Positions 4,776 through 60,806 of a stretch of DNA of 64,000 nt are shown here, piece after piece. This DNA comes from a bacterium (lineage in GTDB: Bacteria; Patescibacteriota; Patescibacteriia; JAACEG01): NCBI GenBank assembly GCA_030641665.1, contig DAOWHA010000038.1, positions 23,857 through 87,856 on the forward strand, written 5' to 3'. The notes below the pieces were generated by a model, which saw only the letters and a list, made by a program, of their open reading frames with translations, searched no databases and was not told the DNA's origin. Numbering within the stretch: the first letter of the stretch is position 1; each line of letters opens with the position of its first letter. Made by a program: the position numbers and the translations under genes.

Positions 4776-5946
4776 CTTTATTACAAACTCTATCCCGCTG
4801 TTCCGCCGCGTTTTTTACAGCGCGCGCGACTGCGAGATGAACTTTTTTATTTAAGACAGCTGGGATAAAATTATTTCTTTTCGGCGTTTTAATAAAGCTG
4901 GCAATAGCAAAACTTGCGGCAAGCTTCATTTTTTTGGTAATTCGCAAAGCCCTTGCGTCTATCGCGCCTCTGAATATTCCGGGAAAGGCAAGCGCGTTAT
5001 TTATTTGATTTGGAAAATCAGATCTGCCAGTAGCAACTATAAACGCTCCGCCATTGAGAGCTTCGGTTGGAAAAATTTCAGGTGTAGGATTTGCCAAAGC
5101 GAATATTATCGGTTTTTTATTCATAGATTTAATCCACTCTTTCTTTAAAACATTCGGCGCTGATACGCCTATAAAAATATCCGCGTTTTTTAAAGCGTCA
5201 GGCAATCCGCCGTCTATATTTTTTTTATTCGTAATTCTAGCAATGTCTTGCTTATAGGCATTGTTTTTTATATCAGATCTGTTTGAATAGATAACTCCTT
5301 TTGTATCGCAAACTAAAAAATCTTTTACGCCTGCGGAATGCAGTAATTTCAAAATAGCATAACCAGCGGATCCCGCGCCATTAATCACAATTTTTATATT
5401 TGTAATATTTTTATTAGTTATTTTCAAGGCATTTATCAATGAAGCCAAGACAACCACTGCTGTTCCGTGCTGGTCGTCGTGCATAACTGGAATTCCGATA
5501 TTTTGCAGTTTTTTTTCTATTTCAAAGCATCGCGGCGCGGAAATATCTTCTAAATTTATTGCGGCAAAATTAGGCGATATATTTTTTACTAATTTAATTA
5601 TCTCTTCGCTATTTTGCGTTTTTATGCAGATTGGAAAAGCGTCAATGTTAGCGAATTTTTTAAAAAGCGCTGCTTTTCCTTCCATTACGGGAATGGCTGC
5701 CAAAGCGCCGATATTGCCCAAGCCCAAAACAGCAGATCCGTCGCTCACGACCGCTAAAGAATTAGCTTTCATTGTCATTTCATACGCTTTTTTTTCGTCT
5801 TTGTAAATTTGCCTACTTATCTCCGCAACTCCAGGAGTATAAACAGTTGATAAAGTTTGCTTATTACTAATTGGAACTTTTAATTTAATCTCAATTTTGC
5901 CTCTATGCTTTTTATACAAGGCAATCGCTTTTTTATTATAATCCAT
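4759..5946 (-). CDS. NAD(P)-dependent malic enzyme (malate dehydrogenase, oxaloacetate-decarboxylating)
   Basis: N-terminal LSTVYTPGVAEISRQI and VVSDGSAVLGLGNIG motifs typical of malic enzymes; Rossmann GAGSAG. Confidence 0.8.
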   Translation of the reverse strand: MDYNKKAIALYKKHRGKIEIKLKVPISNKQTLSTVYTPGVAEISRQIYKDEKKAYEMTMKANSLAVVSDGSAVLGLGNIGALAAIPVMEGKAALFKKFANIDAFPICIKTQNSEEIIKLVKNISPNFAAINLEDISAPRCFEIEKKLQNIGIPVMHDDQHGTAVVVLASLINALKITNKNITNIKIVINGAGSAGYAILKLLHSAGVKDFLVCDTKGVIYSNRSDIKNNAYKQDIARITNKKNIDGGLPDALKNADIFIGVSAPNVLKKEWIKSMNKKPIIFALANPTPEIFPTEALNGGAFIVATGRSDFPNQINNALAFPGIFRGAIDARALRITKKMKLAASFAIASFIKTPKRNNFIPAVLNKKVHLAVARAVKNAAEQRDRVCNKDFFAQ

Positions 5947-55731: not shown

Positions 55732-56076
55732 ATGTTTGATTCTTTGCCAGTTTTTGACAATTCATCAGAATTAGAGAATATAATCACTAATTGTCCAATT
55801 TGCGGAAACAAAAATGGAAGTTTAGAAGTGTCGATTTTAGAGGATGGCGGCAATAGCAATTTAATTTACATTAAATGCCATAAATGCTTTAACAATTTAT
55901 TAGGAGTAATAAATTATAGCCCTTTCGGCGTTAGCATAGCCACCTTTGCCACTGATTTAAAAAAGTCTGAAGTTCTCAAATTTCAAAATGGAGACTATGT
56001 CAACAGCGACGATGTTTTAGAACTTCATAGCATATTAGAAGATAAAAAAATAGACTTTAAGGAGATAATAAGATAA
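55732..56076 (+). CDS. Hypothetical zinc-finger protein (CPICG...CHKC)
   Basis: Two CxxC pairs; occupies the position where prp/rpmA usually follow rplU. Confidence 0.4.
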   Translation: MFDSLPVFDNSSELENIITNCPICGNKNGSLEVSILEDGGNSNLIYIKCHKCFNNLLGVINYSPFGVSIATFATDLKKSEVLKFQNGDYVNSDDVLELHSILEDKKIDFKEIIR

Positions 56077-57001: not shown

Positions 57002-57167
57002 TTTAAAAATAGAATTACCCCGCCCAAGTTTAAAAAATTAGGGCGGGGTTTCTTGACTTTTATATATTATCGTGATAAAATAAATCATTCTTTCTAAATG
57101 GAAGAATCCCAGTCCTCTGGCAGAGGAAAAATTTAAATTTCGGGCTTTTGGCCTGAAAGGGGGGGAA

Positions 57168-58163
57168 ATGGATCATCACAAATTAACTTTGGAGCAAGTA
57201 GCAAGAGTAGAGAAAGGCATTGGTATTGATGCTTTTGTACGACTAAGTAATCAGTTGCCGGAAATCGGTGTTAAATACGGCGACAAGTTGCTTGGGCAAG
57301 TTGAGGCGATTCTCAATATGGTTGATCCCATGGATCAGGAAAAGTTGCTTGCCGGCGAAGCGTCAATCGAAATTATCGAGATTATTAAATCTTTGTTCGA
57401 TAACACTAGTCGCGTTATTCCGCCTCGCGGATTTAAGTTGCCGGTAACTGATGAAAATAGGAAGTTTTATCTTGATCAGCATGTTGTTGATCATCAAGAC
57501 ACACTGAAACGTTTAACAGATTATCTCCATGGATATAAATATCCGTCTTTATCCGAGTTTCAGGATAAATGCGAATCCGTCAAGGAGAAATCATTGCAGT
57601 ATCCGCGAATCGGAGAAAACGCGTTTAATCGCTGCTATCTTCCTCTTCCGATACCGCATATTCCGGAATTGTCTGACTTAACAAAACTGGGAAAAGTTAT
57701 AGAAGATTTGCTTGAAGGAGTGGGACGGGCTTATAAGAATGAGTTTCCCGATCGTACTTTCTATAATCACAGACAAGGAACTTTGGCAGGCGAGGTTTCA
57801 ATCGTTTCCGGCACAAGACATGGCAAATTACTTGAAGCTGCTTCCAAAGCGCCGCAATCAGGCATATTTCTCCCTGATTCTTTGCAGGGATATTCAATTC
57901 ACGCTGACAGGAAAATTATTTCATTGTTTCCCAACTTTGTTTCACTTAGCGGTATTGAATATATTTTTGCAATGATTGCTTATCCTGACATTCTGGCGCG
58001 TGACTACAACACGCCCGGACTGGATATGGCCGCTCTTTTCTGGCGGTCCGCCGACTATTCGCTTCTCTTCGAGGCTAGCGACGACGAGCTCAGCTTCGGC
58101 CGCACGGGCTACTTGGCCGTTGCCTACGACTTCTATTCTGGCGGTCTCTTGTTTCTCGGGTAG
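57168..58163 (+). CDS. DGR target protein; C-terminal variable region in a putative C-type-lectin/FGE-like fold
   Basis: Its last 126 nt form the VR. The C-terminal WRSADYS...GGLLFLG resembles the CRSANR...IGFRLV ends of CLec/FGE-type DGR targets. The 3' end is locally GC-rich. Confidence 0.65.
   Translation: MDHHKLTLEQVARVEKGIGIDAFVRLSNQLPEIGVKYGDKLLGQVEAILNMVDPMDQEKLLAGEASIEIIEIIKSLFDNTSRVIPPRGFKLPVTDENRKFYLDQHVVDHQDTLKRLTDYLHGYKYPSLSEFQDKCESVKEKSLQYPRIGENAFNRCYLPLPIPHIPELSDLTKLGKVIEDLLEGVGRAYKNEFPDRTFYNHRQGTLAGEVSIVSGTRHGKLLEAASKAPQSGIFLPDSLQGYSIHADRKIISLFPNFVSLSGIEYIFAMIAYPDILARDYNTPGLDMAALFWRSADYSLLFEASDDELSFGRTGYLAVAYDFYSGGLLFLG
58037..58162 (+). repeat. DGR variable repeat (VR)
   Basis: 126 bp paired with 58531-58656; 18 mismatches, all at positions that are A in the other copy. 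Confidence 0.85.
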
Positions 58164-58244
58164 TGCAGGGATTTGGTCTTTTTGTTCCTTGGTTTTTGGA
58201 TCAAAAATTTTGGTTCTTGGTTTTTGGTCGAATTTTTAAAATCA

Positions 58245-58280
58245 CGAGGCGTGACAATGTTGCGCCTCGTTTTTCTTTTT
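58245..58280 (+). terminator. Rho-independent terminator after the DGR target gene
   Basis: CGAGGCGTGACAATGTTGCGCCTCG hairpin followed by TTTTTCTTTTT. Confidence 0.55.
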
Positions 58281-58530
58281 AAAATATGATAAAATAAATT
58301 TGGGAGTAGGCTAATGCAACCGGTCTCAAGGGGTAGCGGTTCGCCGAAACCCTAAATTTCTACCAACGCATCAGAATTTTGCGGTTCACTTTGGATTGCA
58401 AAAGAGTATGTGAAAATTTAGGCACTACTTGTCTTTTTCTGGCGTTCAACTTTTAAGAGCCAAATAAAATACAGGGGGAATATTACTTTTCAAGCTATTT
58501 TCCCAGTGGTTAAAGATGGAAAAAGACGAA

Positions 58531-58656
58531 TTTTCTGGCAGTCCGCCGACTATTCGCTTAACTTCAAGGCTAACGACGACAAGCTCAACTTCGACAACAC
58601 GGACAACTTGGCCAATGCCAACGACAACTATTCTAGCGGTCTCTTGTTTCTCGGGT
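58531..58656 (+). repeat. DGR template repeat (TR)
   Basis: Intergenic copy rich in AAC codons (NFKANDDKLNFDNTDNLANANDNY in frame); it carries adenine at every VR/TR mismatch site. Confidence 0.85.
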
Positions 58657-58720
58657 TGTGTCTAAATGTAATAAAGGCCTCATTATAGAGGTCTTTATTC
58701 GTTATTATCTTTGAGGTAAT

Positions 58721-59071
58721 TTAGTTAAGCGAGCGTTGCCAGCCGCCTAACATTCTGCCAATTTCTTGAATCTGCTTTTGTAATTCGAGATATTTTTTAC
58801 TATCAATAATATTCAAGTCTTTTAGCAGTCTAATAAACAGTTTTAGGGTATCAAATTTAGCATTAGCTTTCTTAATTAAAGCCAACTTTTCATCTCTGTA
58901 AGCGCAACTGGTCTCCAACAATAGTTCAAGCGTAACAATAATATACATTTCGCACTTAGCCCCTAAAGTATGTTTATCTTTTTTAGGAAATAAAGCAGAG
59001 TATTTATAAAAAAGTTTATACAGTTCATATAATTTTTTAATTATTGGAATATCTGTATTTTTATGATCCAT
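58721..59071 (-). CDS. Avd-like accessory variability determinant (four-helix-bundle protein, TIGR02436-like)
   Basis: 116-aa helical protein (YELYKLFYKYSALFPKKDKHTLGAKCEMYIIVTLELLLETS...GGW) resembling four-helix-bundle/Avd proteins found beside DGR reverse transcriptases. Opposite strand, overlapping the RT start by 9 nt. Confidence 0.6.
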   Translation of the reverse strand: MDHKNTDIPIIKKLYELYKLFYKYSALFPKKDKHTLGAKCEMYIIVTLELLLETSCAYRDEKLALIKKANAKFDTLKLFIRLLKDLNIIDSKKYLELQKQIQEIGRMLGGWQRSLN

Positions 59072-60124
59072 AATATTTATGATAAATTAATTAGTTTGGA
59101 AAATATTTTAATTTGCTGGAATGAATTCAAAAAAGGCAAATCAAAAAAATATGACATGATGGAATTTGAGCGTTATTTGGAAGATAATATTTTTGAGCTT
59201 CATAACGAATTAGTTAATCAAACTTATCAGCACTGCCCTTATGTAAAATTCCATATCTATGATCCAAAGCATAGAATAATCCATAAAGCCGAAGTTAAAG
59301 ACAGAATAGTTCATCACATTGTTTTTAAGGAATTATATAGAATTTTTAATCCAACTTTTATATATCATTCGTATTCGTCCAGAAATAATAAGGGTACTCA
59401 TTTGGCTGTTAGGAATTTATCCCGTACATTACGGAAAGTTAGCAATAACTACACAAAGCAGGTTTATGTATTGAAATGCGATATTAAAAAATTTTTTCAT
59501 AGCGTATCTCACCAAAAACTTTTTGAAATAATAAAAAATAAGATTAACGACCATAAATTTTTGTGGCTAGTATGGCAAATTATATCAAGTTTTTTCATAA
59601 TTGCGGAAAACTTTCCGCAGAGAGAGTTAAAGAAAAATTTTTTAGAAAAAAGAGGTTTACCAATAGGTAATTTAACCTCACAAATTTTTGCTAATATATT
59701 TTTGGATAAATTCGACTGGTTCATTAAAAAGCAATTAAGAATAAAATATTATTTTAGATATGCTGACGATTTTGTGATTATTAATTCAAACCCGGAATAT
59801 CTTAATAATATTGTTAACTTAATAGAGGAATTTTTAAATACAAAACTTAATTTAAAATTACATCCTCAGAAAACAGAAATTAGAAAATTCGAACAGGGTG
59901 TTGATTTTCTCGGATATGTTATTTTACCTCATTATATAACACTTCGGACAAAAACCAAAAAGAGGGTGTTTAAAAAAATTAAAGATAATAAAGAAAAATT
60001 GGATCAAAATTTGATATCTAAAAATTCTTTTAATCAATCGCTTCAGTCGTATTACGGAATATTTATGCGCTGTAATAGCTATAAATTAAAACGAGAACTT
60101 GATAAGTTTATTAAAGATTTTTAG
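59063..60124 (+). CDS. DGR reverse transcriptase
   Basis: RT motifs: domain 4 PIGNLTSQ (DGR-type [ILV]GxxxSQ), domain 5 RYADDFVII (YxDD); 353 aa; no maturase or endonuclease domain; adjacent to TR/VR. Confidence 0.8.
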   Translation: MIHNIYDKLISLENILICWNEFKKGKSKKYDMMEFERYLEDNIFELHNELVNQTYQHCPYVKFHIYDPKHRIIHKAEVKDRIVHHIVFKELYRIFNPTFIYHSYSSRNNKGTHLAVRNLSRTLRKVSNNYTKQVYVLKCDIKKFFHSVSHQKLFEIIKNKINDHKFLWLVWQIISSFFIIAENFPQRELKKNFLEKRGLPIGNLTSQIFANIFLDKFDWFIKKQLRIKYYFRYADDFVIINSNPEYLNNIVNLIEEFLNTKLNLKLHPQKTEIRKFEQGVDFLGYVILPHYITLRTKTKKRVFKKIKDNKEKLDQNLISKNSFNQSLQSYYGIFMRCNSYKLKRELDKFIKDF

Positions 60125-60278: not shown

Positions 60279-60527
60279 ATGAAAAATTTTTCGAAAAAAT
60301 ATTTTCAAAATTTAATAACACAAAGACCTAATTGGTGTCGTAGTACCACATTATTAATTCTGGCGATATTTTTAGTTTTATTATTTATCAAAGATGTTGC
60401 GTGGGTTACAGAGAATGTAAAAAAAATATCCGTGATAAGCATCAGTTTTATTGTTTCATTATTTATAATAGCCCGGGTTGTTGATTTTTTCAGTTTTTTT
60501 CAAAATCAAACTAAAAAGGGCAATTAA
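60279..60527 (+). CDS. Hypothetical small membrane protein
   Basis: SD AAAAGGAGGAAAAAAATG; two TM segments. Confidence 0.35.
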   Translation: MKNFSKKYFQNLITQRPNWCRSTTLLILAIFLVLLFIKDVAWVTENVKKISVISISFIVSLFIIARVVDFFSFFQNQTKKGN

Positions 60528-60596
60528 AGTTTCAAGAGCGAGAGAAAACCAAAGCCCAACTCTCGCTCCTCAATCCAAATTTTTGATGAAAATTAT

Positions 60597-60739
60597 TGTC
60601 TTTGCGAGGAGCCGAATGAGCGAAGCGAGAGAGGTGCGACGAAGCAATCTGATTAATTACGCAAAAAAATTTATAATCATAGATTTGTTCACTTAGTAAT
60701 GAGATTGCTTCGCTCCGTTGCACTACGCTCGCAAAGACA
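60597..60739. mobile_element. MITE-like repeat family A, copy A7 (degenerate right TIR)
   Basis: Left TIR TGTCTTTGCGAGGAGCC; GACGAAGCAATCTG...GAGATTGCTTCG inverted pair; right end CGCTCGCAAAGACA. Confidence 0.65.
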
Positions 60740-60806
60740 AGAATAGAAATAGAAAGCCCGCTCGCAAAGGCAAAAAAATCAAAGTATTATTATAATTTTA
60801 TATTTT

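What the first reader, a model, noticed from the sequence alone, without database searches (positions are those of the whole stretch)
57168..60124. Complete diversity-generating retroelement (DGR): target with VR, TR, Avd-like gene and DGR-type reverse transcriptase
Read directly from the sequence:
- The last 126 nt of ORF 57168-58163 (58037-58162) are repeated at 58531-58656.
- The 353-aa ORF at 59063-60124 has RT domain-4 motif PIGNLTSQ and domain-5 RYADDFVII.
- A 116-aa helical ORF lies at 58721-59071 on the minus strand.

From what is known of DGRs, the [ILV]GxxxSQ variant of the RT motif, an Avd-like four-helix-bundle protein and an adenine-mutagenised TR/VR pair together define this class of retroelement. 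The retroelement diversifies the C-terminus of a ligand-binding protein. This cassette sits between the L25 gene and secA, and I see no phage genes nearby, so it looks chromosomal.
Basis: partly seen in the sequence, partly recalled or inferred. Interest (0 to 1): 0.85.

Follow-up and report, generated by a model that had tools for sequence, protein, structure and literature searches.

The report
Chromosomal CPR diversity-generating retroelement with upstream RNA
This is a complete, ordinary-for-its-lineage diversity-generating retroelement in a Candidatus Parcubacteria chromosome that rewrites the tip of one protein. Its template is preceded by a conserved folded RNA that looks like a rearranged version of the RNA the well-studied phage element needs to start copying.

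Summary
VR (58036-58165) and TR (58531-58660) are a 130-nt ungapped repeat with 19 mismatches. Eighteen are at TR adenines, all at codon positions 1 or 2; the 19th makes the target's stop codon. The 116-aa ORF passes NCBI's curated Avd model, and the RT's closest solved relative is the Bordetella phage DGR RT. Flanking genes are housekeeping. The gene order TR-(avd)-RT is the catalogued 'B3' architecture, reported for 90% of CPR DGRs, so the cassette is a new member of a known kind. Close relatives (RT 80% identical) are active in nature: contigs with identical TR differ at 25 VR columns, 24 of them at TR adenines. Beyond the finding, the VR-TR 'spacer' holds a ~230-nt structured RNA leader with its own promoter, supported by covariation and present in 18 of 19 RT-bearing relatives. 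Its elements follow the same cyclic order as the solved Bordetella DGR RNA but lie upstream of the TR, which suggests a circular permutation. A single-stranded block in it pairs with the TR-specific flank and, better than with the TR, with the VR boundary. That fits the published primer-IMH pairing hypothesis. These RNA inferences are comparative only. The target's C-type-lectin fold is tentative.

The parts
57053..57081 (+). Promoter-like site of the target gene (TTGACT-17-TAAAAT, with TG before the -10)
   Evidence: Best consensus match in the region, 10 of 12. Consensus scan only; the total number of sites is no higher than in shuffles.
57168..58163 (+). Target (variable protein) gene, 331 aa, acidic (pI 5.3), no signal peptide or transmembrane segment
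   Evidence: ORF. No Pfam, NCBIfam or PDB sequence match. 62 homologs, none with an informative name; every source label that names an organism is Patescibacteria. AF2 model has pLDDT above 90 for residues 85-331. Maximum Kyte-Doolittle(19) is 1.44.
58036..58165 (+). Variable repeat (VR). Adenine-derived substitutions span 58045-58140. It encodes the last 41 residues.
   Evidence: Family entropy is 2.41 bits at codons with a TR adenine at position 1 or 2, against 0.78 at others (P = 9e-7).
58141..58167 (+). Invariant 3' end of the VR, an IMH-like boundary. GTAGTG at 58160-58165 includes the TAG stop and is complementary to the leader block CACUAC.
   Evidence: No TR adenines between 58636 and 58654. 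The TR-T/VR-A difference is conserved across most loci. Block-VR complementarity is perfect 6/6 in 26 of 34 RNAs, permutation P = 0.004.
58176..58235 (+). T/G-rich tract downstream of the VR, conserved in related loci; function unknown
   Evidence: Direct repeats D2. Alignment of 17 loci.
58244..58270 (+). 12-bp GC-rich hairpin followed by a T-run: terminator of the target gene and/or the inverted repeat that DGR targets often carry after IMH
   Evidence: Terminator scan. MFE -18.6 kcal/mol. The stem is retained with different sequences on both arms in L001 and L006, read from the alignment by eye and not formally counted.
58287..58295 (+). Extended -10 box (TGATAAAAT) of the leader-TR RNA
   Evidence: A TGnTAnAAT-like box sits 7-10 nt before the conserved leader start in divergent loci. 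Read from the sequence; the full-promoter scan did not call it.
58303..58530 (+). Structured leader RNA. Invariant 5' GUAGGCUAAUG (58306-58316); P1 hairpin (58316-58344); CGCCGAAA (58342-58349); optional P2 domain (58351-58422); primer-like block; P3; P4; A-rich strand; P5.
   Evidence: nhmmer places it at 58304-58539, E 1e-60, one copy in the window. RNAalifold: 32 of 47 pairs have compensatory changes. 91.1% of cells are paired against 41-55% when partners are slid; 242 double-change cells against 84 in shuffles, 0 of 500. No Rfam family at gathering score.
58419..58428 (+). Single-stranded block UAGGCACUAC, the candidate primer strand. The 5' half pairs with the TR-specific flank; the 3' half pairs with the VR boundary.
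   Evidence: The same asymmetry is seen for the known primer strand Sp45-56 of phage BPP-1 and was noted by Naorem et al. 2017 (PMC5703328).
58429..58440 (+). P3 5' strand (UUGUCUUUUUCU), candidate 'stop-duplex' strand directly after the block
   Evidence: Pairs with 58518-58529. 98.8% of cells paired; 9 of 12 pairs have double changes.
58444..58504 (+). P4 short stem-loop (58444-58460), conserved A-rich single strand CAAAUAAAAUACA (58461-58473) and P5 hairpin (58474-58504)
   Evidence: Covariation in P4 and P5. Coordinates.
58518..58529 (+). P3 3' strand (GGAAAAAGACGA), ending 1 nt before the TR
58531..58660 (+). Template repeat (TR), 31 adenines, not translated as part of a gene
58661..58664 (+). 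TR-specific 3' flank UCUA that pairs with the 5' half of the leader block
   Evidence: 4/4 paired in 27 of 34 RNAs, with alternative pair types. Permutation P < 5e-5; the VR flank gives P = 0.6.
58670..58699 (+). 12-bp hairpin just after the TR: end of the RNA and candidate Avd-binding stem-loop
   Evidence: Covariation in 6 of 7 pairs. Handa et al. (bioRxiv 10.1101/2023.10.23.563531) predict Avd-binding stem-loops just downstream of the TR in 207 of 278 DGRs.
58721..59071 (-). avd (accessory variability determinant), 116 aa, basic (pI 9.5), antisense between TR and RT
   Evidence: NF033474 83.3 bits (cutoff 80); PF22296 66.1 bits (cutoff 40). pI.
59063..60124 (+). DGR reverse transcriptase, 353 aa. 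IGNLTSQ and YADD motifs. Its start codon overlaps the avd start by 9 nt, in divergent orientation.
   Evidence: RVT_1 98 bits. Best PDB relative is BPP-1 bRT, E 1.6e-41.

Best explanation
A complete chromosomal diversity-generating retroelement of the CPR type (architecture B3: target/VR, TR, antisense avd, RT) in a Candidatus Parcubacteria genome.

Shown:
- The four components are intact.
- The VR differs from the TR almost only at TR adenines.
- Close relatives carry different VR alleles at exactly those positions.

Inferred mechanism:
1. An independent non-coding RNA of about 400 nt (about 58303-58705) is transcribed from its own extended -10 promoter. It consists of a folded leader, the TR and a terminal hairpin.
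2. RT and pentameric Avd bind this RNA.
3. The single-stranded leader block UAGGCACUAC pairs with the 3' boundary and flank of the TR and supplies the priming nucleotide. By analogy with Sp A56 of phage BPP-1, this is around C58428.
4. cDNA synthesis starts near G58654 and runs 3'-to-5' across the TR, misincorporating opposite adenines.
5. Synthesis stops at the P3 duplex, which abuts the TR 5' end.
6. The RNA-linked cDNA replaces the VR. The primer block pairs perfectly with the VR boundary (GTAGTG) but is mismatched on the TR, which gives the transfer its direction.

The result is variation at up to 21 codons in the last 41 residues of a cytoplasmic-looking 331-aa protein. Its C-terminal domain is probably a very divergent C-type-lectin-like binding fold.

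The leader carries, upstream of the TR, the modules that the Bordetella element carries downstream in 'Sp'. The cyclic order is the same, so the RNA is a circular permutation.
For: Cassette:
- Adenine-specific TR/VR mismatches, 18 of 19, P = 7e-13.
- Avd above the curated equivalog cutoff.
- RT closest to BPP-1 bRT by 24 orders of magnitude over other RT classes.
- The same cassette in about 20 related loci with adenine-biased mismatches.

Activity:
- Six contigs with identical TR and 0 polymorphisms in a 389-nt spacer differ at 25 VR columns, 24 at TR adenines. A second pair gives 12 of 12.
- That group has RT 80%, Avd 84% and TR 118/125 identical to the window.

Leader:
- Found in 18 of 19 RT-bearing loci that were retrieved through the target protein alone. 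45 loci have both leader and RT; 1 has an RT without the leader.
- It is always between VR and TR.
- Helices were predicted independently and pass slide and shuffle controls.
- A conserved -10 box lies upstream and a terminator-like hairpin downstream.

Primer analogy:
- Block 5' half against the TR flank, P < 5e-5. Block 3' half against the VR boundary, P = 0.004.
- The same IMH > IMH* asymmetry holds for the experimentally defined BPP-1 primer strand (Naorem 2017, PMC5703328).

Element order:
- Block, then stop-duplex strand, short stem-loop, adenosines/single strand, then a long stem. This matches Sp47-56, Sp59-70, Sp71-78, A80/A81 with the thumb ring, and Sp95-139 of the solved RNP.
- The partner strand of the stop duplex lies immediately 5' of the TR in both systems.
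Against: - There are no reads or population data for this exact element, so current activity is inferred from relatives.
- All RNA-mechanism steps are comparative. There is no transcript, priming site or RNP evidence.
- The block:TR duplex tested as a simple 6-bp helix is only 73% paired, shows no covariation, and has a U.U mismatch in 22 of 34 sequences (24 of 34 are not a standard pair).
- Compensatory events for block-VR pairing are few: two positions, 3 and 4 sequences, probably 2-4 independent events. L074 and L026 are exceptions.
- There is no sequence homology between the leader and BPP-1 Sp. The Rfam RT-16 resemblance is sub-threshold (29.7 bits against 50) and does not recur in divergent leaders.
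- Part of the block (UAGG) can alternatively pair within P2.
- Foldseek finds no significant fold match for the target.
Confidence: 0.9

Rival explanations
1. The cassette is an intact-looking but no longer active DGR, a recent fossil. The VR-TR differences record past activity only.
For: No population data exist for this exact element. The lineage does decay. 29 target homologs have no RT, Avd or leader in the DNA held for them (about ten of them with a full 5 kb on both sides; others lie near contig ends). Three loci (L045, L050, L051) keep only leader fragments. In several relatives the best RT match covers only about the first 200 residues, and in L001 the RT is called as two genes, so some RT genes may be split.
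Against: All three ORFs are full length, with catalytic YADD and IGNLTSQ motifs. The TR keeps 31 adenines placed at codon positions 1 and 2. There are no non-adenine mismatches inside the variable zone. All RNA helices and the -10 box are intact. Relatives with 80% identical RT are demonstrably varying.
Confidence: 0.12
2. The cassette is a working DGR, but the upstream leader is not the primer/RT-binding module. On this view it is a 5' UTR-like stabilising or regulatory RNA (or a separate sRNA), and the functional Sp equivalent is the 3' hairpin plus downstream antisense-avd sequence, as in the canonical layout.
For: Handa et al. predict Avd-binding stem-loops and up/downstream 'stop' duplexes in CPR DGRs from 40 nt upstream plus 100 nt downstream of the TR. 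A conserved hairpin does follow the TR. The block:TR helix on its own lacks covariation. The permutation argument rests on analogy without sequence homology.
Against: Only 9 nt and one hairpin separate the TR from a terminator-like end and from the antisense avd gene, which leaves no room for a 140-nt Sp. The P3 3' strand abuts the TR exactly as the stop-duplex strand does in BPP-1. The block covaries with the TR-specific flank. It shows the same IMH > IMH* asymmetry as the true BPP-1 primer. The leader co-occurs with the RT in 45 of 46 RT-bearing loci, and with an unrelated target protein in L066.
Confidence: 0.25
3. The RT belongs to another class (group II intron, retron, Abi/DRT defence RT) and the repeat is coincidental.
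For: NCBIfam lists partial similarity to group II intron RT/maturase (150.8 bits), Drt3a (74.8) and retron St85 RT (70.0). Some phage DGR RTs are annotated 'retron-type' by depositors.
Against: All of those scores are far below the curated cutoffs (300, 200, 235). The best solved relative is the DGR RT bRT. There is no group II intron or retron RNA match in Rfam. An Avd equivalog is adjacent. The adenine-specific repeat has P = 7e-13.
Confidence: 0.01
4. The DGR is carried by a prophage or other mobile element rather than being a resident chromosomal cassette.
For: DGRs are common in phages. The target gene is more GC-rich (44%) than the window (36%). Related cassettes sit in different neighbourhoods; for example L001 lies next to a beta-CASP/metallo-beta-lactamase-fold gene.
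Against: Immediate neighbours on both sides are housekeeping genes. avd and RT are AT-rich like the host (26-30% GC). The leader pattern gives no hit in 2.9 million viral contigs. The nearest phage RTs are only about 35% identical. The high GC is confined to the VR/TR-type sequence (49-59%), as expected for adenine-poor scaffold codons.
Confidence: 0.04

Closest known systems
CPR/Patescibacteria DGRs of architecture B3, TR-(avd)-RT (Wu et al. 2018, PMC5758913); cellular DGR 'clade 2' of Roux et al. 2021 (PMC8144416)
   Same: Host group, gene order with antisense avd between TR and RT, chromosomal location, and a target with no recognisable domain, signal peptide or membrane anchor. The VR lies at the C-terminus.
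   Different: Nothing in the cassette itself. I could not check whether this VR type is one of Wu's 'UVR1-6' classes, because the supplementary alignments are not held. The upstream leader RNA is not mentioned in either paper; the text search of Wu et al. found no occurrence of 'RNA structure' or 'hairpin'.
Bordetella phage BPP-1 DGR (mtd-avd-TR-brt) and its solved bRT-Avd-RNA complex (PDB 8ub7 series; Handa et al., bioRxiv 10.1101/2023.10.23.563531)
   Same: - RT family, with IGxxxSQ and YxDD motifs.
- Avd.
- Adenine mutagenesis at codon positions 1 and 2.
- An invariant, adenine-free 3' end of the repeat.
- A TR/VR difference at the boundary (IMH versus IMH*).
- A hairpin after the VR.
- A primer-like strand more complementary to the VR boundary than to the TR boundary.
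- The same cyclic order of RNA modules.
   Different: - The RNA modules lie upstream of the TR, not downstream.
- avd is antisense and downstream of the TR, so it cannot supply the upstream stop-duplex strand as the avd 3' end does in BPP-1.
- There is no linker between the block and the stop-duplex strand (2 nt in BPP-1).
- The hairpin after the VR is about 80 nt away and terminator-like, not 5 nt away.
- RT identity is low; phage DGR RTs in general are about 35% identical.
- The host is cellular, not a phage, and the target is not a tail fibre.
Rfam RF03019 'RT-16 RNA' and RF 'RT-10' (Weinberg et al. 2017, PMC5737381)
   Same: RT-16 gives a full-length alignment to 58389-58535. It shares the single-stranded CUAC, AUAAAAUACAG, the following hairpin, GGUG, and a long-range helix closing at the 3' end. 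RT-10 is the BPP-1 Sp region, which sets the precedent that 'RT motifs' can be DGR RNAs.
   Different: The score is 29.7 bits against a gathering score of 50. There are no RT-16 hits at E <= 1 in ten more divergent leaders. The model does not cover the 5' P1/P2 half. Weinberg et al. assigned RT-16 no function.
Primer-IMH base-pairing model of DGR directionality (Naorem et al. 2017, PMC5703328)
   Same: The RNA segment next to the cDNA junction is more complementary to the VR boundary than to the TR boundary.
   Different: In BPP-1 this was a single-sequence observation. Here it is supported across 34 RNAs with compensatory changes (P = 0.004). A reciprocal, TR-specific pairing of the other half of the block is also seen (P < 5e-5).
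DGR variable proteins with C-type lectin fold (Mtd 1yu0, TvpA 2y3c, TaqVP 5vf4)

Membership tests
Diversity-generating retroelement (DGR) | TR/VR repeat pair whose differences are (almost) only at TR adenines | tested here: met
   18 of 19 mismatches at TR adenines, P = 7e-13.
Diversity-generating retroelement (DGR) | Reverse transcriptase of the DGR clade with the [I/L/V]GxxxSQ motif and YxDD | tested here: met
   IGNLTSQ and YADD are present. The best PDB relative is BPP-1 bRT, E 1.6e-41 against about 2e-17 for other RT classes. No formal phylogeny was built.
Diversity-generating retroelement (DGR) | VR inside a protein-coding target gene, with substitutions at codon positions 1 and 2 | tested here: met
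   The VR covers the last 41 codons plus the stop codon of ORF 57168-58163. All 18 substitutions are at positions 1 or 2.
Diversity-generating retroelement (DGR) | Accessory protein Avd (present in most, not all, DGRs) | tested here: met
   NF033474 83.3 bits against cutoff 80; PF22296 66.1 against 40.
Diversity-generating retroelement (DGR) | IMH/IMH*-type non-identical 3' boundary that distinguishes target from template | tested here: met
   There is an adenine-free invariant stretch at 58141-58159. The conserved TR-T/VR-A difference lies at 58657/58162, and the flanks diverge after 58165/58660.
Diversity-generating retroelement (DGR) | GC-rich inverted repeat downstream of IMH (found in about a third of DGRs) | tested here: inconclusive
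   A conserved 12-bp hairpin lies at 58244-58270. It is about 80 nt from the VR and is followed by a T-run, so it may simply be a terminator.
Diversity-generating retroelement (DGR) | Ongoing adenine-directed diversification of the VR | tested here: inconclusive
   Shown for relatives with 80% identical RT: 24 of 25 and 12 of 12 polymorphic VR columns are at TR adenines. It cannot be tested for this exact element without reads.
Diversity-generating retroelement (DGR) | Variable residues displayed on a C-type lectin (or Ig-like) fold | tested here: inconclusive
DGR cassette architecture B3 (Wu et al. 2018) | Core order TR, then avd on the reverse strand, then RT | tested here: met
   TR 58531-58660 (+), avd 58721-59071 (-), RT 59063-60124 (+). 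The definition is in PMC5758913.
Rfam RF03019 RT-16 RNA | Covariance-model score at or above the gathering score (50 bits) | tested here: not met
   29.7 bits, E 0.012-0.026. Not detected in ten divergent leaders, nor at gathering score in 15 loci.
BPP-1-type DGR template RNA (TR followed by Sp) | Primer strand, stop duplex and RT-binding elements located 3' of the TR | tested here: not met
   Only 9 nt and one hairpin follow the TR before a terminator-like end and the antisense avd gene. The conserved structured RNA is 5' of the TR.
BPP-1-type DGR template RNA (TR followed by Sp) | cis-priming from an internal RNA 2'-OH, with the RNA bound by RT-Avd | not testable with these tools
   Requires biochemistry or cDNA-junction sequencing.
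Group II intron RT/maturase | TIGR04416 score at or above the cutoff, and flanking intron RNA domains | tested here: not met
   150.8 bits against cutoff 300. No group II intron RNA hit in Rfam.
Retron RT | Retron RT model at or above the cutoff, and an msr/msd RNA | tested here: not met
   NF038233 70 bits against cutoff 235. No retron RNA family hit.

The most novel reading that the evidence does not exclude
In this lineage, and possibly in the whole B3 class that makes up about 90% of CPR DGRs, the DGR template RNA is a circular permutation of the Bordetella prototype. The primer strand, stop duplex, stem-loop with adenosines and RT-binding stem precede the TR as a self-contained leader. 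That would explain why avd can sit antisense between TR and RT. The primer block is bipartite. One half covaries with a TR-only flank and so defines the template. The other half covaries with the VR boundary and so defines the target. This would be the first phylogenetic (covariation) evidence for the Naorem primer-IMH pairing model of how DGR cDNA finds its target and why transfer is one-way.
Probability: 0.5. Interest if true: 0.7.

Novelty: new member of a known kind. Interest (0 to 1): 0.5.

Why it matters
The cassette itself adds one more CPR DGR to thousands. It is useful mainly as a clean, complete example in a housekeeping context, with a target family of about 60 uncharacterised, apparently cytoplasmic proteins.

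The wider value is the RNA. How DGR cDNA is integrated, and what IMH does, is still described as unknown in 2026 (PMC12875486). The only structural model of a DGR RNP comes from one phage. A second RNA architecture, naturally permuted and rich in covariation, gives three things:
- An independent test of which RNA modules are essential.
- Comparative support for base-pairing between the primer RNA and the target boundary.
- Concrete, compact constructs (a 400-nt RNA, a 116-aa Avd and a 353-aa RT) for reconstitution and for engineering targeted mutagenesis systems.

Tried and rejected
- **Simple block:TR helix.** I first proposed a 6-10-bp helix between the leader block and the TR 3' end. Formal counting rejected it as a simple helix: 73% paired, no compensatory changes, and U.U at the centre. 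It was replaced by the bipartite TR-flank/VR-boundary description.
- **Membership in Rfam RT-16.** Sub-threshold, and it does not recur in divergent leaders.
- **Pairing of the invariant 5' end with the TR.** RNAalifold predicted pairing between GUAGGCU (58306-58312) and GGCUAAC (58568-58574). There is essentially no covariation and both sides are conserved for other reasons. Left unresolved.
- **Novelty of primer-IMH complementarity.** I thought it might be new, but Naorem et al. 2017 already state it for BPP-1.
- **Novelty of the antisense avd.** It is the catalogued B3 architecture.
- **Sequence searches against the PDB** for Avd and for the target: no hits.
- **Fold searches.** Foldseek against the PDB was not significant.
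- **Extra VRs or remote targets** in the window: none.
- **Viral-contig scan** for the leader pattern: none.
- **Literature gaps.** Paul et al. 2017 and one 2026 preprint could not be read.

Full report
**1. Checking the observation**

The repeat is 130 nt, ungapped: 58036-58165 against 58531-58660. A base-by-base comparison gives 19 mismatches.
- Eighteen are at TR adenines (10 A>G, 6 A>T, 2 A>C). The TR has 31 adenines in 130 bases, so the hypergeometric P is 7e-13.
- All 18 are at codon position 1 or 2 of the target ORF.
- The 19th is TR T58657 against VR A58162. It converts TTG to the TAG stop of the target and lies 3' of the last adenine substitution (58140).
- No other copy of the TR, scored at non-adenine positions only, exists in the window on either strand.

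**2. The proteins**

*Avd.* The 116-aa minus-strand ORF scores 83.3 bits on NCBIfam NF033474 'DGR protein Avd' (equivalog, cutoff 80) and 66.1 bits on Pfam bAvd (cutoff 40). It is basic, with pI 9.5.

*RT.* The 353-aa ORF is an RVT_1 reverse transcriptase.
- Among all solved structures its best match is 8ub7 chain A (E 1.6e-41). Next come group II intron and retron-type RTs at about 2e-17.
- The 8ub7 sequence is 100% identical to brt of Bordetella phage BPP-1.
- Group II intron, Drt3a, retron and AbiA models all score far below their curated cutoffs.
- The nearest RTs in sequenced phages are about 35% identical.

*Target.* The 331-aa protein matches no Pfam or NCBIfam family and no PDB sequence. 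It is acidic and has no hydrophobic segment that could be a signal peptide or membrane helix.

**3. Host and context**

An identical target protein is on record as a hypothetical protein of a Candidatus Parcubacteria bacterium. The 62 homologs carry no informative names, and the source labels that name an organism are all Patescibacteria. The flanking genes are an HtrA-like protease, a CofD/YvcK-like protein, L21, L25 and SecA.

**4. The target family**

In an alignment of 34 family members the last 41 residues follow a fixed scaffold, FWxSAxxSLxFxAxDxxLxFxxTxxLAxAxxxYSGGLLFLG. Column entropy is 2.41 bits at codons that have an adenine at position 1 or 2 of this window's TR, and 0.78 bits at the others (Mann-Whitney P = 9e-7).

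An AlphaFold model is confident for residues 85-331.
- Foldseek against the PDB gives nothing significant.
- The AFDB library was unavailable.

I therefore call the fold 'probably a very divergent C-type-lectin-like domain', not established. Roux et al. 2021 predicted exactly this situation for CPR targets.

**5. Relatives and activity**

A scan of one genome per species found 52 loci encoding relatives of the target.
- About 20 carry the same cassette: a TR 360-580 nt downstream of the VR, then avd(-), then RT(+). Mismatches are adenine-biased, for example L014 18/20, L041 24/25 and L029 28/31.
- Many others have the target alone.

- Six contigs share an identical TR and an identical 389-nt spacer, with four differences in the 600 nt upstream of the VR. 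Their VRs differ at 25 columns, 24 of them at TR adenines.
- A second pair differs at 12 VR columns, all 12 at TR adenines.
- The first group has an RT 80% identical, an Avd 84% identical and a TR 118/125 identical to the window's.

The lineage is active in nature. This exact copy is intact, but its current activity is inferred.

**6. What is already known about this layout**

Wu et al. 2018 define architecture B3 as TR-(avd)-RT and state that it accounts for 90% of CPR DGRs and is nearly absent elsewhere. Roux et al. 2021 describe a cellular DGR clade restricted to Patescibacteria, whose targets lack recognisable domains or membrane anchors. As a cassette, this is a new member of a known kind.

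**7. The 'spacer' between VR and TR is a structured RNA**

Aligning the VR-TR interval of related loci showed conserved blocks and apparent covariation. To sample it without bias toward its 3' part, I scanned metagenomes with a pattern taken only from its 5' domain. That gave 35 loci, and none in viral contigs. In nearly every locus where enough DNA is held, the leader is followed 150-270 nt later by a TR, and a VR lies upstream with adenine-specific mismatches: L063 31/32, L087 22/22, L072 20/20.

A profile search shows how tightly the leader is tied to the RT.
- 45 loci have both leader and RT; one has an RT without the leader.
- Among loci retrieved through the target protein alone, 18 of 19 RT-bearing loci have the leader.
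- The window has exactly one copy (58304-58539).
- The leader also occurs with an unrelated target protein in L066.

On an alignment of 34 distinct RNAs (A3), RNAalifold independently predicts five helices:
- a 5' hairpin, P1;
- a 12-bp long-range helix, P3, whose 3' strand ends 1 nt before the TR;
- a short hairpin, P4;
- a hairpin, P5;
- a hairpin just after the TR.

32 of the 47 predicted pairs show compensatory changes. With controls, 91.1% of cells are paired against 41-55% when partners are slid by 1-3 columns. There are 242 double-change cells against 84±8 in shuffles (0 of 500). P3 is 98.8% paired, with 9 of 12 pairs showing double changes.

The transcription signals fit an independent RNA of about 400 nt.
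- A conserved extended -10 box (TGATAAAAT, 58287-58295) lies 7-10 nt before the invariant leader start.
- The target gene has its own promoter-like site and a strong terminator at 58244-58270.
- The RNA ends in a 12-bp hairpin at 58670-58699.

No Rfam family matches at gathering score. RF03019 'RT-16', an orphan RT-associated motif, aligns full length to 58389-58535 and shares several conserved features. It scores only 29.7 bits against 50, and it is not found in more divergent leaders. That is a lead, not membership.

**8. Comparison with the solved Bordetella RNP**

In phage BPP-1 the RNA needs 20 nt upstream of the TR and 140 nt ('Sp') downstream. The elements run in this order:
1. stop-duplex strand a, immediately 5' of the TR;
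2. the TR;
3. the Avd-binding stem-loop;
4. the primer strand, Sp47-56;
5. stop-duplex strand b, Sp59-70;
6. a short stem-loop;
7. adenosines that make A-minor contacts;
8. a single-stranded 'thumb ring';
9. a long RT-binding stem.

In this element the order is:
1. a single-stranded block (58419-58428);
2. the P3 5' strand (58429-58440);
3. the short stem-loop P4;
4. the conserved A-rich strand CAAAUAAAAUACA;
5. the hairpin P5;
6. the P3 3' strand (58518-58529);
7. the TR;
8. the 3' stem-loop.

The cyclic order is identical and only the break point differs. This is inference by analogy; there is no sequence homology. It would explain why nothing but one hairpin is needed after the TR, and hence why avd can lie antisense there.

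**9. The primer-like block**

My first model, a simple helix between the block and the TR 3' end, failed the test. It is 73% paired, shows no covariation, and has a U.U mismatch in 22 of 34 sequences, with 24 of 34 not forming a standard pair. Counting the same block against the VR in the same register gave a different picture.
- The 3' half, CACUAC, is perfectly complementary to the VR boundary GTAGTG in 26 of 34 RNAs, against 3 of 34 for the TR.
- Shifted registers give at most 2 perfect matches.
- Compensatory changes occur at two positions: A-T to G-C in 3 sequences and A-T to C-G in 4. L074 and L026 are exceptions.
- A permutation test over 17 distinct combinations gives P = 0.004 for the VR and 0.14 for the TR.
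- The 5' half, UAGG, pairs with the TR-specific flank UCUA in 27 of 34 RNAs, with several pair types. Permutation gives P < 5e-5. It does not pair with the VR flank (P = 0.6).

As a cross-check I extracted the BPP-1 cassette. Its experimentally defined primer strand Sp45-56 pairs with TR118-129 as ||x|||:|xxx| and with VR118-129 as |||||||||:x|. Naorem et al. 2017 had already noted this and proposed that the cDNA-linked RNA primer pairs with IMH DNA to set directionality. A 2026 paper still calls the integration step unknown.

The CPR data therefore do two things. They identify the leader block as the likely primer strand. They also give covariation support for that published hypothesis, and add a reciprocal template-specific pairing.

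**10. Mechanism and verdict**

*Shown:*
- an intact DGR cassette of the CPR B3 type;
- adenine-specific VR/TR differences;
- diversification in close relatives;
- a conserved structured RNA fused to the 5' side of the TR and tied to the RT.

*Inferred:*
- this RNA is the functional equivalent of Sp in permuted order;
- priming occurs from about C58428, with the first templated base near G58654;
- synthesis terminates at P3;
- direction is set by primer-boundary pairing.

*Tentative:* the target's C-type-lectin-like fold and its binding role.

The cassette is not novel as a kind. The RNA architecture is the part worth following up.

Noticed in passing
window 58176-58235: A T/G-rich tract with repeated TTGG/CTTTG units directly downstream of the VR is conserved at the DNA level in loci whose target proteins are only about 40% identical. 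It lies between the VR boundary and the terminator hairpin. Its function is unknown; it could be part of target-site recognition.
   Followed up: partly
window 59063-59071: The start codons of avd (minus strand) and the RT (plus strand) overlap by 9 nt in divergent orientation. Each promoter would then have to lie inside the other gene. The same 9-nt overlap is present in the closest relatives (L001, L006, L007, L010, L014, L029, L041). More distant relatives have gaps of 3-130 nt.
   Followed up: partly
window 60592-60776: Nested inverted repeats lie in the 280-nt gap before secA: 60592-60608 with 60728-60744 (94% complementary), and 60640-60668 with 60684-60712. This could be a long hairpin, a small mobile element or a structured RNA. 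There is no Rfam match at gathering score.
   Followed up: no
window 60279-60527: An 82-aa ORF with a hydrophobic core lies just downstream of the RT and has only faint, sub-threshold Pfam hits. I did not check whether it is conserved next to related DGRs.
   Followed up: no
L045:6032-6149, L050:5428-5489, L051:5915-5988: Target homologs without any RT or avd within 5 kb still have fragments of the leader RNA just downstream. These look like decayed DGR cassettes that left a fixed 'orphan' target behind.
   Followed up: partly
L019 (OY970295.1, 3.6-Mb Thermodesulfovibrionales chromosome), 5001-5858: A 39%-identical homolog of the target protein sits in a non-CPR genome with no RT, avd or leader within 5 kb. 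It could reflect horizontal transfer or a non-diversified branch of the family.
   Followed up: no
L082:9723-9945 and L049:118-1595: There are two exceptions to the leader-RT association. L082 has a full leader but no avd or RT downstream, and its best VR-like repeat has mismatches that are not adenine-specific. L049 has avd and RT directly after the target, with no detectable leader or TR.
   Followed up: no
L037 (about 5080 and 8217) and L048 (about 4461 and 5684): The VR has a second near copy 3.1 kb downstream (L037) or 1.2 kb upstream (L048). In both, the mismatches are not adenine-biased (4/18 and 8/19). These are probably second target paralogs, which would make them multi-target cassettes.
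   Followed up: no
window 58306-58312 with 58568-58574: The invariant 5' end of the leader (GUAGGCU) is complementary to GGCUAAC inside the TR (codons K-A-N), and RNAalifold predicts the pairing. Both sides are almost invariant, so covariation cannot test it.
   Followed up: partly
window 58414-58422 with 58351-58359: The UAGG of the primer-like block can pair either with the TR 3' flank or with CCUA in the P2 outer stem (88% paired in long-form leaders). Short-form leaders (L018, L026, L031, L064, L079) lack P2 altogether. This may be a conformational switch.
   Followed up: partly
window 55732-56076: A 114-aa ORF with two CxxC pairs (zinc-ribbon-like) lies between the L21 and L25 genes and matches no Pfam family.
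   Followed up: no
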